The notes beneath the pieces are model-generated. The model had not been told where the DNA came from. It did no database searches and saw only the letters and a list, made by a program, of their open reading frames with translations. Position numbers and translations under genes: made by a program. Positions 20,071 through 62,404 of a stretch of DNA of 64,000 bases are shown here, piece by piece. Positions within the stretch are counted from its first letter, which is position 1; each line of letters opens with the position of its first letter. Source of the DNA: an uncultured Alphaproteobacteria bacterium (GTDB lineage: Bacteria; Pseudomonadota; Alphaproteobacteria; CAAHEQ01; UBA3637); NCBI GenBank assembly GCA_937935995.1, contig CALGXF010000011.1, positions 246-64,245 of the forward strand. Direction: 5' to 3'.

Positions 20071-20472
20071 TTATGAAGCATATGTGTTGAATGTAATCAC
20101 ACCGTTTTCAATTGTAACTGTACCACCGGAACGATTGTCCATCGCTTCCAAAACTTTGTCAGAAGCGCCAGTAACTGTTACGACCGGTTGATCGACTTCC
20201 GTTGCAGCAGATGTAATGCTGATGCCTGTTGCACCGCCCGGAATGGTTTCACCATCCAAAATGGCTTTACAGTCACCTGTTTCCATTTGGGAACCATCAC
20301 CGTTTGTTTGAGCAACAACAACGCAACGGGATGCATAGTCCAAAATCGTGTTGGCCCGATGGCGGTTCATCGCCATTGTGTAACCGGCCAGACCACCGAT
20401 GGACAACACACCGATAATCGCCAAAACACCCAACATTTCAATCATTGAACGACCAGCTTCAGTTTTTTTCAT
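20071..20472 (-). CDS. Type IV pilin-like protein (candidate major pilin; class III prepilin leader)
   Basis: 133 aa. Leader MKKTEAG, then a predicted cleavage site, then RSMIEMLGVLAIIGVLSIGGLAGY. Glu sits at +5 after the Gly, with a hydrophobic alpha1 helix. The C-terminal half carries a Cys pair (D-region like). Confidence 0.75.
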   Translation of the reverse strand: MKKTEAGRSMIEMLGVLAIIGVLSIGGLAGYTMAMNRHRANTILDYASRCVVVAQTNGDGSQMETGDCKAILDGETIPGGATGISITSAATEVDQPVVTVTGASDKVLEAMDNRSGGTVTIENGVITFNTYAS

Positions 20473-20520
20473 GTTTTTTATCCTTTTCCTAGTTAAAACT
20501 CGGTTTAATACCCATCTTCA

Positions 20521-20549
20521 ATTATAGCATTCCTATAACTGAAAATCAA
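20521..20549 (-). promoter_or_regulatory. Near-consensus sigma70 promoter for the small pilin gene
   Basis: On the minus strand: TTGATT, a 17-nt spacer, then TATAAT, about 50 nt upstream of the pilin ATG. RBS aggaaaagga. Confidence 0.6.
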
Positions 20550-31648: not shown

Positions 31649-32014
31649 TCATTCACACAACGCGCGGTTCGGATTACTCCGACTGCTGTAGGTCACGAGT
31701 CCATTTGAGGGATTAACGTAAAACGCGTTATCTCTACCGCTTGCAGTTGCCGTCCAAGCAGTTTTACTAATAGAACTGGCAATCACAGGACATTTTCCGC
31801 CTCCCGTGTTTCCGTCCCAATCGGGGCAAACTTCATACATAGTCGCTAAATGACGACCATTTGCTTTACACCAATTTGATGCACTCCACCAGTTGAGTGT
31901 AATGTCACTGATACAAAATTGACCATCATCTGATAACGTCCCGCCCTCACATGCGGCATGGGCTGACGTGGCCATAAAGGCTGCTACGATGGTTGCTAAT
32001 AAAATTTTCTTCAT
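31649..32014 (-). CDS. Secreted Cys-rich lectin-like (C-type-lectin-like fold suspected) protein; stand-alone homolog of the C-terminal domain of the giant pilin at 59396-60799
   Basis: About 121 aa from MKKILLATIVAAFMATSAHA (signal peptide). It shares ...W.A..C...G..LAT..E(V/L)CPDW(D/N)G....G..CP... and a C-terminal Cys with the last ~90 aa of the second giant pilin. Confidence 0.55.
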   Translation of the reverse strand: MKKILLATIVAAFMATSAHAACEGGTLSDDGQFCISDITLNWWSASNWCKANGRHLATMYEVCPDWDGNTGGGKCPVIASSISKTAWTATASGRDNAFYVNPSNGLVTYSSRSNPNRALCE

Positions 32015-59200: not shown

Positions 59201-59359
59201 GGCAAAATCCCCCTCATCGGCCGATTGTTTTCCGGTGACAAAGGCGGCGGTCTGTTCGGTCTGTCATTTGAAGCAACCGGACGCCCCGGCGAGGCGGACG
59301 TATCCTTTAATCCGACAAGCATTCTGACGCCCGGTATTATTAGAAATATTTTCAATTAA
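56297..59359 (+). CDS. AsmA/YhdP-like large inner-membrane-anchored protein (DUF3971-type)
   Basis: 1020 aa. An N-terminal TM anchor, a long beta-rich body and a conserved C-terminal region (GRLFSGDKGGGLFGLSFEATG) typical of the YhdP/AsmA-like family. Confidence 0.6.
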   Translation: MKKSKVFHMIAKLIWRLIEIVLALMFVLFILGVWRLAKEPVELKYVAPILADVLTPTESDLTVEIDKAYLELALKRGHLLDIKVTNLTVYRPDDTILAFIPEGNVSLSILGLIKGDFIPTSLYLQKPYLNILVSEKQKKAPSSASASTAIIDSITFILNHMVSLDHFEIEKGEFVLDMKSQNTSVMIPEFNFSMEKRSQDELDIQGTTTLYIDGQFTPFWLTGLYNTQNKLLSFEANFKELDVTQLAFTLPIFKGLQLNVNGQVNGALNLADRQKGLRYIVDNLAFSATLNHAGTIYLPQPLDIYYSVQNMAVKGAFTPHMEQLNMSDSFVDIGGPTAEVAATTTGIGSFLDTNDFSKVQTTFTASVHNVPVLSVPDVWPSSLGPDAHAWVKENISGGMVNDAHFVLTLKGEELTSVKGLLDVQDTTVRYMEHMPIVEHASGKVILQLGRVDIEATKGVSGNLILDRALLNLTQLLGDDPIAHMEISAHGPLNEALSLINQPPLYFADEFQINPKTVQGSGSTNLILDFPLDEDIELKDVQVSVTADLKDVQMPVMDTPFTLDNGALKLTASNDDLTVTGTALLNGQFESILACSQSFLPSRSYDSKCHVQTVLLGADLAPFSEELPDFIAGPLDVDLTVIQKNKRETELNLKADMTQATLNLWPISYIKNPKDPSVLTGTFVLKNNTLTDIPKIAFTAEKDQVQIKGNASFKNGTSFRFDTIKAPRNDASVLFKRDQNDLVTFEVKGKALNLTEAAHGRRLNEPKTPEEVAEEQAHRIRSFTGKIQLDKLYLSPLTPLTNVQVHLRKENDMWQEIDAVAFADSDNIRFKLDKNQKELIASSDNIGKILKQAGYTSRIQGGTLKSTIKQDSKGTLSGTIHVQKYQLTGATFLMKAATILGILDAFTGDTIDFKKATIPFTLTPENVLTIKDAVASGTTLGITLSGTLTYDQMNFKGSVIPAYAINSLPGKIPLIGRLFSGDKGGGLFGLSFEATGRPGEADVSFNPTSILTPGIIRNIFN

Positions 59360-59395
59360 GACATTTCATTTTATACGAAATTTCCTAAATATAGA

Positions 59396-60799
59396 TTACT
59401 TACAAAAAGCGTAACCTATGCCACTACTATATGGCATACTTGTAACGAATCCATCCCAAGTAACAGCTAGAAGGTAGTCTTCTTTATAAGAAACATTTGT
59501 CCAAATAAAATGTCCGCCCTCCCCAAGAGTTACATTGGGACAGTTTTGTTCACCACCGTAATAAACGGTTCCATTCCAATCAGGACACAACTCTTCTAAA
59601 GTTGCCATATTTAATCCCTGTTCCTCACACGCGGTGACAATATTACTTACAGGCGACAAGTATTCATATGTATTCGGATCCCAAGCACTTTCCCACTCAA
59701 CGCTACAAAATTGCTCCCCATTATTTAGCGTATAAATATCACCATTTTCACAAAAGACTGTTCCGATACATACGCCTGCTTGACATGTCCCGGACTGATT
59801 GTCGGTTGTCGTACAGGCGGTTCCGTCAGCGACATTCGTTAATGTCGGACAAGTTCCGCTCGTGGCCACCGTCACCGTTTGACATGCCGTCGCCGTTAAC
59901 TCTTCACAACATTGACCCGCCGTTTCATTGTACGTTGAACCATTTTCACAATCCGGACGACACGTCCCGTCACTTTGACATGTTCCATCACACGTCGGTG
60001 TACATTTTGGCGGCGTAATCGGATTTAACGAACAACTTTCTTGCGTCGTTCCCGGATGATAACAACAGCCATGTTCATTCAAGGCTTCGTCAATCAAAAT
60101 AGTTATTGTTCCGACTTCTTTTGTCGGACGACCACACACATCCTCCGGCCCCGTCAAAGCACAACAACTTTCTCCGTCACAAGTTTCCGCGGCCGGACAT
60201 GGTTCACATGTACTGACAGAACAATACGTATCTTCTGCACATGTGATTTTCTTTACCGTCACACAACCGTTTTCATCCATCACATTCTCTGTCAGATTAC
60301 AATCTTGCGTCACCGTTATATTCTCACATAGGTCTTCCGGTTCCATTCCGCTGCCTGAACCGCCGGATGTCCCGCCCGATGAAAGGGAACCATCGTATAA
60401 AAACATAAAGCCCATCGTTTGGGAACCTGAACAAGTCGTATGCCCTTCCGAACCAACATAAATCTCTTCTATCGACGTATCATCAACAGTCATGATTTTA
60501 TCACATACTTTTTCCGATACGTCCGATACAGTTACGACAAAACCATTGGCATATGTTGTCGTATCAATCCCGAATGTCATGCCGGACTGCGGGTAAAAAT
60601 CTGAAGGCACTGTATCTTTGCCCGTGTCCATGACATGCAATGCCAATAAATGCACATCATGGTAAATGCTGTTGGCTTTGTGTTTATCCAGAGCATATCG
60701 AAATCCCATCAAGGCTGCCACACTTAACACCCCGATAATCGCCAAAACAGCCAACATTTCCAAAAGTGTCCGGCCGTGTTGTTTGGTTTTAAAATCCAT
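59396..60799 (-). CDS. Giant Cys-rich type IV pilin-like protein, paralog 2, with C-terminal lectin-like domain
   Basis: 467 aa. Leader MDFKTKQHG, then RTLLEMLAVLAIIGVLS. An SGGTSGGSGSG linker and a Cys-rich module. The C-terminal ~90 aa are homologous to the stand-alone secreted protein at 31649-32014 (ELCPDWNG... NCP... AVTWDGF... C). Confidence 0.7.
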   Translation of the reverse strand: MDFKTKQHGRTLLEMLAVLAIIGVLSVAALMGFRYALDKHKANSIYHDVHLLALHVMDTGKDTVPSDFYPQSGMTFGIDTTTYANGFVVTVSDVSEKVCDKIMTVDDTSIEEIYVGSEGHTTCSGSQTMGFMFLYDGSLSSGGTSGGSGSGMEPEDLCENITVTQDCNLTENVMDENGCVTVKKITCAEDTYCSVSTCEPCPAAETCDGESCCALTGPEDVCGRPTKEVGTITILIDEALNEHGCCYHPGTTQESCSLNPITPPKCTPTCDGTCQSDGTCRPDCENGSTYNETAGQCCEELTATACQTVTVATSGTCPTLTNVADGTACTTTDNQSGTCQAGVCIGTVFCENGDIYTLNNGEQFCSVEWESAWDPNTYEYLSPVSNIVTACEEQGLNMATLEELCPDWNGTVYYGGEQNCPNVTLGEGGHFIWTNVSYKEDYLLAVTWDGFVTSMPYSSGIGYAFCK

Positions 60800-60844
60800 T
60801 TATTTTCTCCTATTTATTTTCCGTTCAAATAGGTGTATACGCTA

Positions 60845-60856
60845 CCCCCCCCCCCC
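60845..60856 (-). repeat. G12 homopolymeric tract (C12 on plus strand) in promoter of giant pilin 2
   Basis: Direct count gives 12 consecutive C. On the minus strand the arrangement is TTGACA-tttagt-G12-tagcgTATACA, about 35 nt upstream of the GGAGA RBS. Confidence 0.9.
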
Positions 60857-60881
60857 ACTAAATGTCAAGCAAAAATTTAAC

Positions 60882-60910
60882 TTGACTCTTTAAAAAGAAT
60901 CCGGCATAAT
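60882..60910 (+). promoter_or_regulatory. Candidate sigma70 promoter for ffh
   Basis: TTGACT, a 17-nt spacer, then CATAAT, about 110 nt upstream of the ffh ATG. It diverges from the pilin-2 promoter. Confidence 0.5.
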
Positions 60911-61018: not shown

Positions 61019-62404
61019 ATGTTTCATACACTCACCGACCGTTTGGGTCAGATTTTAAACAAAATTAAAGGTCGCGGCATTCTAACGCAGGAAATGGTCG
61101 ACGAAGCCATGCGCGAAATCAAAATCGCGTTGTTGGAAGCTGATGTGGCTTTGCCCGTTGTCAAATCGTTCATTCAAGATGTCAAAGAACAAGCCGTCGG
61201 TCAAAACATCATCAAATCCGTTCAACCGGCACAACAGGTTGTTAAAATTGTCAATGATGCTTTGGTCAAAACATTGGGCGATGACAACAGCGCTTTGAAT
61301 TTTTCACCTCTTTCCCCGACGGTGATTTTGATGGTCGGCTTGCAAGGTTCCGGCAAAACGACTTCTTCGGCTAAACTGGCCGTTCGCTTGAAAAAAGACG
61401 GTAAAAAAGTGTTGATGGCGTCTTTGGATATTTACCGGCCGGCGGCACAGGAACAATTAGCCGGTCTCGGAACACAAATCGGTGTAGACACGTTGCCGAT
61501 TATTGCCGGACAAAAACCGTTGGATATTACCAAGCGAGCGTTGGATGAGGCCAAAAAAGGCGCCTATGATGTCTTGATTTTGGATACCGCCGGCCGATTA
61601 CATGTCGATGATGACATGATGGATGAAGTCAAACAAGTTGCTGCCAAAGCAAACCCGACCGAAACATTGTTGGTAGTTGATTCTTTAACAGGACAAGATG
61701 CAGTTCATGTCGCGGACTCTTTCCATGCAGCGTTGCCATTAACCGGTGTTATTCTGACACGCGTCGACGGAGATGCGCGCGGTGGTGCTGCTTTGTCGAT
61801 GAAAGCCGTCACCGGTTGCCCGATTAAATTTTTAGGCGTGGGCGAAAAAACGGAAGCTTTGGAAGTATTTGATGCCAAACGCGTCGCCGGGCGGATTTTA
61901 GGCATGGGCGATGTGGTCGGATTAGTCGAAACCGCGATGGAAAAGATTAATCAGGAAGAAGCTCTTAAAACAGCCGAACGCATGATGAAAGGCCAATTTG
62001 ACATGAATGACATGTTGGGTCAATTGCAACAAATCAAAAACATGGGCGATGTCAAAGGCATCATGATGATGATACCCGGCATGGCTAAATTCCGCGAAAA
62101 AATTGAACAAGCCAACATTGATAACAGCATTTTTAAACGACAAGAAGCGATTATCTTGTCAATGACGCCGTTCGAACGGCGCCACCCGGATATCTTGAAA
62201 GCATCTCGCAAATTGCGGATTGCTAAAGGAGCCGGCGTAACTGTGAATGATGTGAACAAGCTCATGAAACAGTATGAACAAATGGCGCAAGCCATGAAAA
62301 AATTCAAGAAAATGGGACCGCTGGGTTCTCTTTCAGCAATGAAAGGGTTATTTGGCGGAAACCCCTTGATGAACAAAGGGGGATTTCCTCCTTTTAACAT
62401 GTAA
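61019..62404 (+). CDS. ffh: Signal recognition particle protein Ffh
   Basis: SRP54 N and G domains (GLQGSGKTT, DTAGR) and a Met-rich M domain. Confidence 0.95.
   Translation: MFHTLTDRLGQILNKIKGRGILTQEMVDEAMREIKIALLEADVALPVVKSFIQDVKEQAVGQNIIKSVQPAQQVVKIVNDALVKTLGDDNSALNFSPLSPTVILMVGLQGSGKTTSSAKLAVRLKKDGKKVLMASLDIYRPAAQEQLAGLGTQIGVDTLPIIAGQKPLDITKRALDEAKKGAYDVLILDTAGRLHVDDDMMDEVKQVAAKANPTETLLVVDSLTGQDAVHVADSFHAALPLTGVILTRVDGDARGGAALSMKAVTGCPIKFLGVGEKTEALEVFDAKRVAGRILGMGDVVGLVETAMEKINQEEALKTAERMMKGQFDMNDMLGQLQQIKNMGDVKGIMMMIPGMAKFREKIEQANIDNSIFKRQEAIILSMTPFERRHPDILKASRKLRIAKGAGVTVNDVNKLMKQYEQMAQAMKKFKKMGPLGSLSAMKGLFGGNPLMNKGGFPPFNM

What the first reader, a model, noticed from the sequence alone, without database searches (positions are those of the whole stretch)
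60820..60910. Second G12 tract between TTGACA and TATACA upstream of giant pilin 2, back-to-back with the ffh promoter
Minus-strand sequence: gc-TTGACA-tttagt-G12-tagcg-TATACA-cctatttgaacggaaaataaata-GGAGA-aaataa-ATG. A consensus -35 is present. The G12 tract makes the -35 to TATACA spacing 23 nt, which is non-permissive. Shortening by about 5-6, or use of alternative -10 sequences, would be needed for expression. This may therefore be an OFF-state allele of a phase-variable promoter, whereas the paralog-1 tract sits closer to an ON configuration. The divergent ffh promoter (TTGACT-17-CATAAT) lies only about 25 nt away, so tract changes might also affect ffh transcription through local supercoiling or UP-element geometry.
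Basis: seen in the sequence. Interest (0 to 1): 0.7.

Follow-up and report, generated by a model that had tools for sequence, protein, structure and literature searches.

The report
Poly-G switch promoter for giant pilin
A run of 12 G's sits inside the promoter of a giant pilus-tip-like protein gene in an uncultured gut alphaproteobacterium; it belongs to a promoter module reused by many related genes and most likely acts as a classic slippage-driven expression switch, but whether this copy is currently on or off cannot be read from the sequence.

Summary
G12 lies on the minus strand at 60845-60856, flanked by TTGACA and TATACA, upstream of a 467-aa pilin-like gene and next to the ffh promoter. 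It is not chance. The only two G/C runs of 8 or more in the window are both G12 and both lie upstream of giant-pilin paralogues.

The same module (CTTGACA, 2-6 nt, G11-14, TAnnGTATnnT, leader hairpin, SD, ATG) occurs upstream of relatives in several other gut Alphaproteobacteria MAGs. At this locus, other strains carry G13. Many independent assemblies break in the tracts. The pilin genes are hypervariable between strains.

This is a promoter-spacer homopolymer contingency locus, as in porA, tp0126 and Bordetella fim, in a new host and gene family.

The "OFF allele" call is not secure. A second conserved -10-like hexamer, TAGCGT, overlaps TATACA and lies 18 nt from TTGACA. The conserved leader hairpin favours that hexamer.

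The proposed ffh coupling has no support, because the tract lies outside the ffh promoter. One strain lacks the pilin gene but keeps TTGACA plus G13, with the breakpoint inside the tract.

Verdict: a real feature and a new member of a known kind. Interest is moderate.

The parts
60845..60856 (-). G12 homopolymeric tract (C12 on the + strand), the variable spacer element
   Evidence: Other strains carry G13 at this locus (L002, L192, L191).
60863..60868 (-). TTGACA, candidate -35 (family-wide CTTGAC)
   Evidence: CTTGAC is present in all cassettes where this region was assembled, except L188.
60857..60862 (-). tttagt between the -35 and the tract. Carries a 4-nt TTTA insertion relative to the family consensus TTGACAgt. 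Could also serve as a weak alternative -35 (TTTAGT, 17 nt from TATACA).
   Evidence: L191 at the same locus has TTGACAgat without the insertion.
60839..60844 (-). TAGCGT, the proximal -10-like hexamer immediately after the tract, 18 nt from TTGACA
   Evidence: TAnnGT or TAnnAT is conserved at this position in 12 of 14 cassettes. It is the best-scoring configuration in the crude sigma-70 model.
60834..60839 (-). TATACA, the distal -10-like hexamer, sharing its first T with the proximal hexamer. Lies 23 nt from TTGACA.
   Evidence: TATnnT is conserved in most cassettes. This allele lacks the final T; alleles L002 and L192 have TATAGT and TATACT.
60809..60833 (-). Leader stem-loop CCUAUUUG/UAAAUAGG. 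Its 3' arm runs into the Shine-Dalgarno sequence.
   Evidence: dG -5.1 kcal/mol, z -3.9, 0 of 200 shuffles as stable. Analogous hairpins with different sequences occur in the other cassettes.
60806..60810 (-). GGAGA Shine-Dalgarno sequence, 6 nt before the ATG
59396..60799 (-). Giant pilin paralogue 2 (467 aa): prepilin N-terminus, type IVb pilin-like head, Cys-rich middle, and a possibly lectin-like C-terminal domain
   Evidence: The gene is hypervariable between strains.
60882..60910 (+). ffh promoter TTGACT-17-CATAAT, back to back with the pilin -35. The two -35 boxes form CTTGAC-N11-GTCAAG.
   Evidence: The sequence is identical in L001-L005.
33419..33449 (-). Paralogue-1 cassette: TTGACT(33449-33444)-ct-G12(33441-33430)-TATGGT/TATGTT. 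Lies directly after two terminator-like hairpins.
   Evidence: Seven independent contigs cover it; two span it with G12 and five end inside the tract.
32031..33386 (-). Giant pilin paralogue 1 (451 aa), the last large gene of a type IVb pilus operon

Best explanation
The G12 run is the length-variable spacer of a conserved, portable sigma-70-type promoter module. The module reads: A/T-rich upstream, CTTGACA, 2-6 nt, G11-14, TAnnGTATnnT, leader hairpin, SD, ATG. It drives individual members of a hypervariable family of giant, modular, type IVb pilin-like proteins. These are probably pilus-tip adhesins, in uncultured gut Alphaproteobacteria.

Slipped-strand mispairing during replication adds or removes G's. 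This changes the distance between the -35 and the -10, and so sets the transcription of each paralogue independently, either on/off or graded. The organism can thereby vary stochastically which adhesin it displays.

Shown here: the anatomy, its conservation across paralogues and genomes, a 12-versus-13 length difference between strains at this locus, and the hypervariability of the genes.

Inferred: that slippage is frequent, that TTGACA is the -35, and that expression follows tract length.

The current state of this copy cannot be called. It is 23 nt from TATACA, which would be off, but 18 nt from the overlapping TAGCGT hexamer, which would be near-optimal. The position of the leader hairpin favours TAGCGT.
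For: 1. Non-random placement. The only two G/C runs of 8 or more in 64 kb are both G12 and both lie upstream of pilin paralogues.

2. The same module occurs upstream of homologues in other genomes. These are L018, L012 and L016, L179, L187/L188 and L190, partial copies at contig ends in L178 and L189, and L124. At least four tracts occur in one MAG, BRZ_AF bin11 (L011, L016, L018, L188).

3. All six closest homologues examined (P0001-P0005, P0010) have a tract or a contig break at its position.

4. Alleles at this locus are G12 (window, L001) and G13 (L002, L192, L191), with substitutions in the -10 region.

5. Assemblies break in the tracts. This holds for 5 of 7 contigs at paralogue 1, four of them after exactly 10 G. 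At paralogue 2, L003, L004, L005 and L193 break there.

6. Fixed promoters in the same window use 17-nt spacing: ffh has TTGACT-17-CATAAT and the short pilin has TTGATT-17-TATAAT. Spacing is therefore expected to matter.

7. Paralogue 1's cassette follows terminator-like hairpins, so it is an autonomous promoter.

8. Divergence between strains is about 1 per 100 nt in the flanks. It rises to 3-35 per 100 nt in the pilin genes, starting at the tract. This is typical of surface contingency genes.

9. The protein has a prepilin motif and a type IVb pilin fold, with top PDB matches CofA and TcpA.

10. There is precedent for the mechanism in porA and tp0126 (PMC7864442) and Bordetella fim2/fim3/fimX (PMC1891110).
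Against: - No read-level data were available, so within-population length heterogeneity is not shown. Contig breaks could come from Illumina errors in long G runs.
- Assembled lengths fall in a narrow range (G11-G14). One apparent difference, L187 G14 versus L188 G13, is a T-to-G substitution rather than slippage.
- No transcription start site is mapped. Two overlapping -10 candidates give opposite readings of which lengths are permissive.
- In every cassette the assembled spacing is off the 17-nt optimum. It is 18-24 nt to the distal hexamer, or 13-15 nt to the proximal hexamer in the common form. No clearly ON copy was seen unless paralogue 2 uses TAGCGT.
- One strain keeps TTGACA plus G13 with no pilin gene downstream (L191). 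The tract can therefore persist without its presumed target.
Confidence: 0.65

Rival explanations
1. Only TATACA serves as the -10, so paralogue 2 at G12 (23-nt spacer) is deeply OFF. It would need to lose 5-6 G's to be expressed, making it in effect a silenced reserve copy.
For: The distal hexamer TATnnT is conserved across cassettes. In alleles L002 and L192 it is a good -10 (TATAGT, TATACT), while the proximal hexamer of L002 is poor (TCGTGT). Relative to the family consensus, paralogue 2 carries a 4-nt TTTA insertion that lengthens the spacer.
Against: TATACA in this allele lacks the critical final T. TAGCGT at 18 nt scores higher in the crude model. A start site set by TATACA would fall inside the 5' arm of the conserved leader hairpin. 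Six contraction steps is not a rapid switch. The gene is nevertheless an intact ORF in the window and in the L177 allele (P0001, 90% identical). Contigs L001 and L192 cover only part of it.
Confidence: 0.25
2. An activator-dependent promoter, as in Bordetella fim. Here the conserved CTTGACA box and A/T-rich upstream would be, or would overlap, a regulator site. The tract would set the distance between regulator and -10, so long distances of 19-24 nt could be the active state.
For: In the Bordetella fim promoters, activity was modelled as requiring more than 22 bases between the activator site and the -10 (PMC1891110). Here all assembled cassettes have spacings longer than 17 nt to the distal hexamer. 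The arrangement of unlinked paralogous pilus-subunit genes, each with its own tract, is the same.
Against: CTTGACA is a perfect sigma-70 and alphaproteobacterial -35, and no separate conserved box was seen upstream. No regulator was identified. Canonical 17-nt promoters exist in the same window.
Confidence: 0.1
3. The tract is not a fast switch. It is instead a stable structural element, or a recombination or deletion junction of a mobile promoter-plus-gene cassette. G12-13 would reflect mutational equilibrium, and expression would be set by other means.
For: The length range is narrow (11-14) across diverged copies. In L191 the pilin gene is replaced by 76 unrelated nt, with homology resuming inside the tract and the -35 plus G13 retained. 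Divergence between strains jumps at the tract. The near-identical leader and 5' coding region of P0002 sits in a different genomic context.
Against: G runs of 12 or more are intrinsically slippage-prone in every system studied. A 12-versus-13 difference is present at one locus among 99%-identical flanks. The constant position of the tract between promoter hexamers is hard to explain by recombination alone.
Confidence: 0.12
4. Tract length also modulates ffh transcription, through a shared divergent promoter region, supercoiling or UP-element geometry.
For: The two -35 boxes are 13 nt apart and form an inverted repeat. The pilin -35 lies within the expected UP-element region of ffh. The -35 plus G13 persists next to ffh in the strain that lacks the pilin gene.
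Against: The tract lies distal to everything in the ffh promoter, at about -61 to -72 from the predicted ffh start. Its length therefore does not alter ffh -35/-10/UP geometry. The cassette sits beside unrelated genes at other loci. ffh is an essential housekeeping gene and a poor candidate for stochastic control. This differs from H. influenzae hifA/hifB, where the repeat lies inside both promoters.
Confidence: 0.04
5. Sequencing or assembly artefact (a poly-G artefact).
For: Two-colour Illumina chemistry produces spurious G runs at read ends. One unrelated contig in the metagenome scan ends in G51.
Against: The tract is internal, with unique conserved flanks on both sides, in independent assemblies from different studies and assemblers.
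Confidence: 0.01

Closest known systems
Neisseria meningitidis porA (poly-G between -35 and -10) and Treponema pallidum tp0126 (poly-G between -35 and -10)
   Same: A G homopolymer lies in the spacer of a sigma-70-type promoter of a surface-protein gene. Expression is optimal when the total spacing is 17 nt (as summarised in PMC7864442).
   Different: Here the host is an uncultured gut commensal alphaproteobacterium, and the gene is a giant type IV pilin-like protein. Two overlapping -10 candidates and a leader hairpin are present. The start site and the length dependence are untested.
Bordetella pertussis/bronchiseptica fim2, fim3, fimX, fimN C-stretch promoters
   Same: Several unlinked paralogous pilus-subunit genes each carry a long C/G tract (7-20 nt) in a conserved promoter box, which allows independent switching of alternative subunits (PMC1891110).
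   Different: The Bordetella genes encode chaperone-usher fimbrial subunits and depend on the activator BvgA. Here the genes encode type IV pilin-like proteins with a canonical -35 and no known activator. The two are not homologous.
Treponema pallidum tpr subfamily II and tprL poly-G promoters
   Same: A paralogous family of variable surface-protein genes, each with a poly-G in its promoter. Length varies within isolates and modulates transcription (PMC7864442).
   Different: In tprL the start site is 4 nt after the tract, and only tracts of 8 G or fewer are permissive. The geometry and the proteins differ.
PilV adhesins of IncI plasmids R64 and TP114 (the shufflon)
   Same: A type IVb pilus operon ends with a large minor pilin. 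Its variable C-terminal part determines binding specificity, and alternative versions are expressed stochastically (PMC9045228).
   Different: The IncI plasmids vary a single gene by site-specific DNA inversion with the Rci recombinase. Here there are many separate paralogues, each with a poly-G promoter. There is no Shufflon_N match.
Type IVb minor pilins CofB/TcpB, and modular pilins such as S. sanguinis PilB
   Same: A pilin N-terminal module carries extra grafted domains and is probably located at the pilus tip (PMC6048534, PMC5207764, PMC8179133). The fold search gave type IVb pilins CofA and TcpA as the best matches.
   Different: There is no detectable sequence homology beyond the N-terminus. 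The middle region is Cys-rich and EGF-like. The gene family is much expanded, with 538 tblastn-confirmed stretches among species-representative genomes; the 80 loci listed are almost all gut or rumen Alphaproteobacteria MAGs.
Haemophilus influenzae hifA/hifB TA-repeat divergent promoters (from my own knowledge; van Ham et al. 1993)
   Same: Divergent back-to-back promoters with a simple repeat in the intergenic region of a pilus gene.
   Different: In hif the repeat lies in the overlapping spacers of both promoters. Here it lies only in the pilin promoter and outside the ffh promoter.

Membership tests
Promoter-spacer homopolymer contingency locus (porA / tp0126 type) | Slippage-prone simple repeat (homopolymer of about 9 nt or more) | tested here: met
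   G12 at 60845-60856. Shuffles give a mean of 0.07 G10 matches.
Promoter-spacer homopolymer contingency locus (porA / tp0126 type) | The repeat lies between the -35 and -10 of the regulated gene's promoter | tested here: inconclusive
   TTGACA lies upstream, and two overlapping -10-like hexamers lie downstream, in this and 10 or more related cassettes. No transcription start site is mapped.
Promoter-spacer homopolymer contingency locus (porA / tp0126 type) | Repeat length is polymorphic among strains | tested here: met
   The same locus carries G12 (window, L001) and G13 (L002, L192, L191). The sample is small and consists of assembled consensus sequences only.
Promoter-spacer homopolymer contingency locus (porA / tp0126 type) | Repeat length varies at high frequency within a clonal population | not testable with these tools
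   No reads were available. Contig breaks inside the tracts are compatible with this but could be sequencing error.
Promoter-spacer homopolymer contingency locus (porA / tp0126 type) | Expression changes with repeat length | not testable with these tools
   Only a crude position-weight model was run.
Bordetella fim-type C-stretch promoters | Multiple unlinked paralogous pilus-subunit genes, each with its own tract in a conserved promoter box | tested here: met
   There are two cassettes in the window, at least four in one MAG, and two in GCA_964308455.1.
Bordetella fim-type C-stretch promoters | Chaperone-usher fimbrial subunit proteins and BvgA-dependent activation | tested here: not met
   The proteins are type IV prepilin-like. 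No activator site was identified. The locus therefore works like this family but is not a member of it.
hifA/hifB-type shared-repeat divergent promoters | The repeat lies in the spacer of both divergent promoters | tested here: not met
   The ffh promoter at 60882-60910 does not contain the tract. The tract ends 25 nt upstream of the ffh -35.
Type IVb minor / modular pilin (PilV, CofB, TcpB-like) | Prepilin N-terminal cleavage/methylation motif with Glu at +5 | tested here: met
   PF07963 scored 23.6 bits against a cut-off of 21.2, and TIGR02532 scored 25.1 against 16.3. The sequence is G|RTLLE.
Type IVb minor / modular pilin (PilV, CofB, TcpB-like) | Type IVb pilin fold of the N-terminal module | tested here: met
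   AF2 model with pLDDT 78.7. The best Foldseek PDB matches are CofA (9iuf) and TcpA (8uhf), with E 4e-3 to 6e-3 and probability 1.0. The E-values are weak.
Type IVb minor / modular pilin (PilV, CofB, TcpB-like) | Encoded in a type IVb pilus operon | tested here: not met
   Paralogue 1 meets this: it follows TcpQ-like, secretin, PilO, PilP, T2SSE and T2SSF genes. Paralogue 2, the gene of this finding, does not: it lies alone between a yhdP-like gene and ffh-rpsP-rimM.
Type IVb minor / modular pilin (PilV, CofB, TcpB-like) | Sequence membership in the PilV/Shufflon_N family | tested here: not met
   There is no such Pfam or NCBIfam hit at E 0.01 or better.

The most novel reading that the evidence does not exclude
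The module may be more than a one-dimensional spacer switch.

(a) It has two overlapping -10 hexamers 5 nt apart (TAnnGTATnnT), which would give two separate ON windows of tract length. The two windows would yield mRNAs with or without the anti-SD arm of the leader hairpin. This would couple transcriptional slippage to translational efficiency or mRNA stability. G12-13 in the common form would lie in the trough between the two windows.

(b) The -35 plus G-tract may also serve as the portable junction at which pilin cassettes are exchanged or lost. The evidence for this is the strain that lacks the gene with its breakpoint inside the tract, and the same leader found at different loci.
Probability: 0.12. 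Interest if true: 0.65.

Novelty: new member of a known kind. Interest (0 to 1): 0.4.

Why it matters
Slippage-driven contingency loci are known almost entirely from cultured pathogens such as Neisseria, Haemophilus, Bordetella, Campylobacter, Helicobacter and Treponema. In gut commensals, phase variation is mostly ascribed to DNA inversion.

Here an uncultured gut alphaproteobacterial lineage appears to run a large, hypervariable family of giant lectin-like pilins. Each closely related copy examined sits behind a reusable poly-G promoter module.

If confirmed, this would give a direct handle for reading adhesin expression states from metagenomes, since tract length is a countable marker. It would also add a second route, besides the IncI shufflon, to varying the tip adhesin of a type IVb pilus. 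The mechanism itself would not surprise a specialist.

Tried and rejected
- **Metagenome pattern scan.** I searched metagenome contigs for TTTTYGCTTGAC-N3-7-G8. It returned 91 loci, essentially all unrelated environmental promoters. Only L124 resembles the family, and it has no intact gene. The scan gave no population sample of the tract.
- **Exact-protein look-ups.** Neither pilin paralogue is on record. The look-up of the yhdP-like protein gave contigs that end inside the pilin gene, before the tract.
- **Rfam.** The whole window gave no hit at gathering thresholds, so no known leader RNA lies here. The ffh leader folds no better than shuffles (z -1.5).
- **Single consensus leader structure.** RNAalifold found no shared structure across all cassettes. 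The hairpins exist but in different registers, so I do not claim a single RNA family.
- **Upstream tract scan.** My first scan of the 80 genome loci used a 250-nt window and missed L012 and L016. Rescanning whole loci corrected this.
- **Length change that was not one.** L187 (G14) versus L188 (G13) first looked like a length change. It is a T-to-G substitution with unchanged total spacing.
- **Extended -10 (TGn).** This is present only in paralogue 1 and L124, so it is not a family feature.
- **Literature.** Searches for pili or phase variation in RF32-type gut Alphaproteobacteria found nothing relevant.
- **G-quadruplex.** I considered this and rejected it, because a single G12 is too short for a standard intramolecular quadruplex.
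Full report
**1. The observation**

The coordinates are:
- G12: 60856-60845
- TTGACA: 60868-60863
- TATACA: 60839-60834
- ATG: 60799

The ORF 59396-60799 (-) encodes 467 aa. It starts MDFKTKQHG|RTLLEMLAVLAIIGVL and passes the Pfam and NCBIfam prepilin N-terminal methylation models. The consensus scan finds the divergent ffh promoter TTGACT-17-CATAAT at 60882-60910. ffh itself is 61019-62404.

The whole 64-kb window (45% G+C) holds only two G or C runs of 8 or more. Both are 12 long, both are on the same strand, and both lie just upstream of ~450-470-aa pilin paralogues. Dinucleotide-preserving shuffles give a mean of 0.07 G10 matches, against the two loci observed.

**2. Organism and gene**

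Relatives of the protein come almost entirely from uncultured gut and rumen Alphaproteobacteria MAGs. A scan of species-representative genomes found 538 tblastn-confirmed stretches, with many copies per genome.

Paralogue 1 (32031-33386, -) is the last large gene of a type IVb pilus operon. That operon encodes a TcpQ-like protein, a secretin, PilO, PilP, a T2SSE ATPase and a T2SSF platform protein. A short 133-aa pilin with the same N-terminus lies at 20071-20472.

Paralogue 2, the gene of this finding, sits alone among housekeeping genes, between a yhdP-like gene and ffh-rpsP-rimM.

An AlphaFold model of paralogue 2 (pLDDT 78.7) gives the type IVb pilins CofA and TcpA as its best PDB matches. 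It also gives weak C-type-lectin and Lcl-like matches for the C-terminal domain. I infer that these are modular, tip-adhesin-like minor pilins, comparable in role to PilV, CofB and TcpB (PMC9045228, PMC6048534, PMC5207764, PMC8179133). They do not match the PilV/Shufflon_N family by sequence.

**3. The tract belongs to a conserved promoter module**

I fetched the DNA around close homologues and neighbouring genes and rescanned the genome loci. The cassettes are tabulated, with L192 and L191 added:

| Locus | -35 and pre-tract | Tract | Post-tract |
|---|---|---|---|
| window paralogue 2, L001 | TTGACAtttagt | G12 | TAGCGTATACA |
| L002 (same locus) | TTGACAtttagt | G13 | TCGTGTATAGT |
| L192 (same locus) | TTGACAtttagt | G13 | TAGTGTATACT |
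| window paralogue 1, L180, L181 | TTGACTct | G12 | TATGGTATGTT |
| L018 | TTGACAgt | G12 | TATTGTATACT |
| L012 | TTGACAgt | G12 | TAATGTATGAT |
| L016 | TTGACAgta | G11 | TATTATAAGAT |
| L124 | TTGACAgt | G11 | TATGATAGGAT |
| L179, L190 | TTGACAgt | G13 | TAGTGTATGCT |
| L187 | TTGACAgt | G14 | AATGTATGAT |
| L188 | (-35 garbled: TTGTGCCA) | G13 | TAATGTATGAT |
| L178, L189 | contig starts inside the tract | at least G8, G10 | TAGAGT... |

The module is therefore: A/T-rich upstream, CTTGACA, 2-6 nt, G11-14, TAnnGTATnnT, about 30 nt of leader, SD, ATG. It occurs next to unrelated genes in different genomes, so it travels with the pilin gene. Each of the six closest homologues I could examine has a tract or a contig break at its position.

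**4. Evidence bearing on variability**

Length differs between strains at this locus. It is G12 in the window and L001, and G13 in L002, L192 and L191, with flanks 99% identical.

Assemblies often break at the tracts:
- At paralogue 1, two of seven independent contigs span the tract (both G12). Four end after exactly 10 G and one after 4 G.
- At paralogue 2, L003, L004, L005 and L193 end at or next to the tract.
- L177, L178 and L189 start inside or just past it.

This pattern fits length heterogeneity in the reads, but it equally fits Illumina errors in long G runs. No reads were available, so within-population switching is not shown.

One apparent length difference, L187 G14 against L188 G13, is a T-to-G substitution with unchanged total spacing.

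Divergence between strains is about 1 per 100 nt in the flanking housekeeping genes. It rises to 3-35 per 100 nt inside both pilin genes, beginning at the tract. Variable surface genes typically behave this way.

**5. Is G12 here an OFF state?**

But there are two overlapping -10-like hexamers that share one T.

- The proximal hexamer, TAGCGT (60844-60839), lies directly after the tract and 18 nt from TTGACA.
- The distal hexamer, TATACA, lies 23 nt from TTGACA.

At the proximal position, T1, A2 and T6 are conserved in 12 of 14 cassettes while the middle bases vary. Those are the three positions that matter most in a -10. The distal position is also conserved as TATnnT, but this allele has A at the critical last position.

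I ran a crude sigma-70 weight model over tract lengths 4-16. The base frequencies were recalled from E. coli compilations, so the model is approximate.
- For this allele the best configuration is TTGACA-17/18-TAGCGT. The scores are 13.9 at G11 and 12.7 at G12. A second, lower peak appears at G6 with TATACA.
- For the common two-nucleotide form, including paralogue 1, there are peaks at G10 (distal) and G15 (proximal). The trough falls at G12-13, which is where the assemblies sit.

Fixed promoters in the same window use 17 nt: ffh and the short pilin, TTGATT-17-TATAAT.

Every cassette leader also has a hairpin whose 3' arm runs into or encloses the SD:

| Cassette | Stem | dG (kcal/mol) | z |
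|---|---|---|---|
| paralogue 2 | CCUAUUUG / UAAAUAGG, 60833-60809 | -5.1 | -3.9 |
| L192 | CUCCUAUUUG / UAAAUAGGAG (10 bp) | -9.6 | -5.4 |
| L018 | CUCCUAUUAA / UUAAUAGGAG | -11.8 | -4.3 |
| L179 | GUUUCC / GGAAAC type | -11.4 | -3.2 |
| paralogue 1 | CUGUUAA / UUAACAG | -6.8 | -1.6 |

The arm sequences differ between paralogues while the pairing is kept. The registers also differ, and no single consensus structure emerged.

If this hairpin acts in the RNA, the start site must lie at or before about 60833. That fits a start about 7 nt after TAGCGT. It does not fit a start about 7 nt after TATACA, which would fall inside the 5' arm.

On this reading paralogue 2 (18 nt) is the copy nearest to ON, and the common form (13-15 nt) is too short. 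The state cannot be decided without a mapped 5' end.

**6. The ffh idea**

The two -35 boxes are 13 nt apart and form CTTGAC-N11-GTCAAG. However, the tract lies on the far side of the pilin -35, at about -61 to -72 from the predicted ffh start. Changing its length therefore leaves the ffh -35, -10 and UP region untouched. Only indirect effects through polymerase occupancy or supercoiling remain possible, and nothing here supports them. The cassette sits next to other genes elsewhere.

One strain (L191) lacks the pilin gene altogether. Window 59358-60846 is replaced there by 76 unrelated nt, and homology resumes inside the tract. TTGACAgat-G13 remains beside an intact ffh promoter. This may be a deletion derivative with a tract-associated breakpoint. 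It also shows that the tract can persist without its presumed target, which I count as mild evidence against a purely pilin-directed function and as support for the cassette-junction rival.

**7. Mechanism and comparison**

The best-supported explanation is a promoter-spacer homopolymer contingency switch. Slipped-strand mispairing changes the -35/-10 spacing and so the transcription of each pilin paralogue independently.

The closest functional precedents are:
- N. meningitidis porA and T. pallidum tp0126: poly-G between the -35 and -10, optimal at 17 nt (PMC7864442).
- The T. pallidum tpr family: paralogues each carrying a promoter poly-G (PMC7864442).
- Bordetella fim2/fim3/fimX/fimN: unlinked alternative pilus-subunit genes, each with a C-stretch in a conserved promoter box (PMC1891110). 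This is the closest analogue in logic.

The locus is not a member of the Bordetella system, because the proteins are different and there is no BvgA. It is not of the hifA/hifB type, because the repeat does not lie in both promoters. Biologically it parallels the PilV shufflon of IncI plasmids (PMC9045228) but uses a different variation mechanism.

**8. Verdict**

The feature is real and correctly observed. Its general interpretation as a phase-variable promoter is well supported by comparative evidence but unproven at the population level. The specific OFF call and the ffh coupling are not supported. It is a new member of a known kind, in a lineage and gene family where this had not been described in the literature I could search.

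Noticed in passing
L191 1842-1930 versus window 59358-60856: One strain (Logan ERR11591952) has no pilin gene between the yhdP-like gene and ffh. A 1489-nt stretch is replaced by 76 unrelated nt. One breakpoint is at the yhdP stop codon and the other is inside the G/C tract. TTGACAgat-G13 is retained.
   Followed up: partly
window 31649-32014 (-): A 121-aa ORF lies 17 nt downstream of paralogue 1. It has a signal peptide plus a Cys-containing domain that resembles the C-terminal domain of giant pilins P0002 and paralogue 2 (motif ATMYEVCPDWDGN versus ATLEELCPDWNGT). It is probably co-transcribed with paralogue 1. It recalls the secreted partners of type IVb minor pilins, CofJ and TcpF.
   Followed up: partly
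L011 2917-3010: In another family member the homopolymer (C13) lies inside the coding leader, in frame (MLFIHNKLIPPPPHQ...GRSMIEML). Slippage there would shift the reading frame rather than alter the promoter. The same MAG, BRZ_AF bin11, also carries promoter-type tracts (L016, L018, L188).
   Followed up: partly
window 60809-60833 and the leaders of L018, L179, L190, L012, L016, L192: Each cassette leader forms a hairpin whose 3' arm overlaps or encloses the Shine-Dalgarno sequence. The arm sequences differ between paralogues but the pairing is kept (z down to -5.4). No single consensus register was found.
   Followed up: partly
window 59396-60799 and 32031-33386 versus L177 and L180: The pilin genes diverge 3-35% per 100 nt between strains whose flanking genes differ by about 1%. 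The jump starts at the tract. Contigs L200 and L201 also break in the middle of the paralogue-2 gene.
   Followed up: partly
window 20071-20472 (-), promoter about 20505-20535: A short 133-aa pilin shares the N-terminus of the giant pilins and is probably the major subunit. It has a fixed canonical promoter, TTGATT-17-TATAAT, with no tract. It lies next to ATP synthase genes, far from the pilus operon.
   Followed up: partly
L012 2791 onward, L016 2740 onward: Some homologues carry very long basic N-terminal leaders of about 60-90 aa before the G|RTLLEML cleavage motif. This is unusual for type IV prepilins.
   Followed up: no
window 42689-42715 and 43608-46073: A9 and A8 runs lie in the intergenic region upstream of the first gene of the pilus operon. 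A VirB4/TrbE-like gene lies just beyond. The type IVb pilus may belong to a conjugative element, as in the IncI and PAPI-1 systems.
   Followed up: no
L090, L100, L104, L110, L125, L135, L140, L142, L152, L171 (lake and other environmental metagenome contigs): A recurring, unrelated element reads TTGAC-ttgcgc-G8-11-(agg)TATAAT and is followed by a conserved hairpin-forming sequence, GGTGGCATCATGGYGATGCCTACCTGAGCAGTTAC. Many copies lie at contig ends. Its identity is unknown.
   Followed up: no
L028 1120-1131: A C12 run lies directly upstream of a TTGACA box of an unrelated gene in another Alphaproteobacteria MAG. The tract sits upstream of the -35 rather than in the spacer.
   Followed up: no
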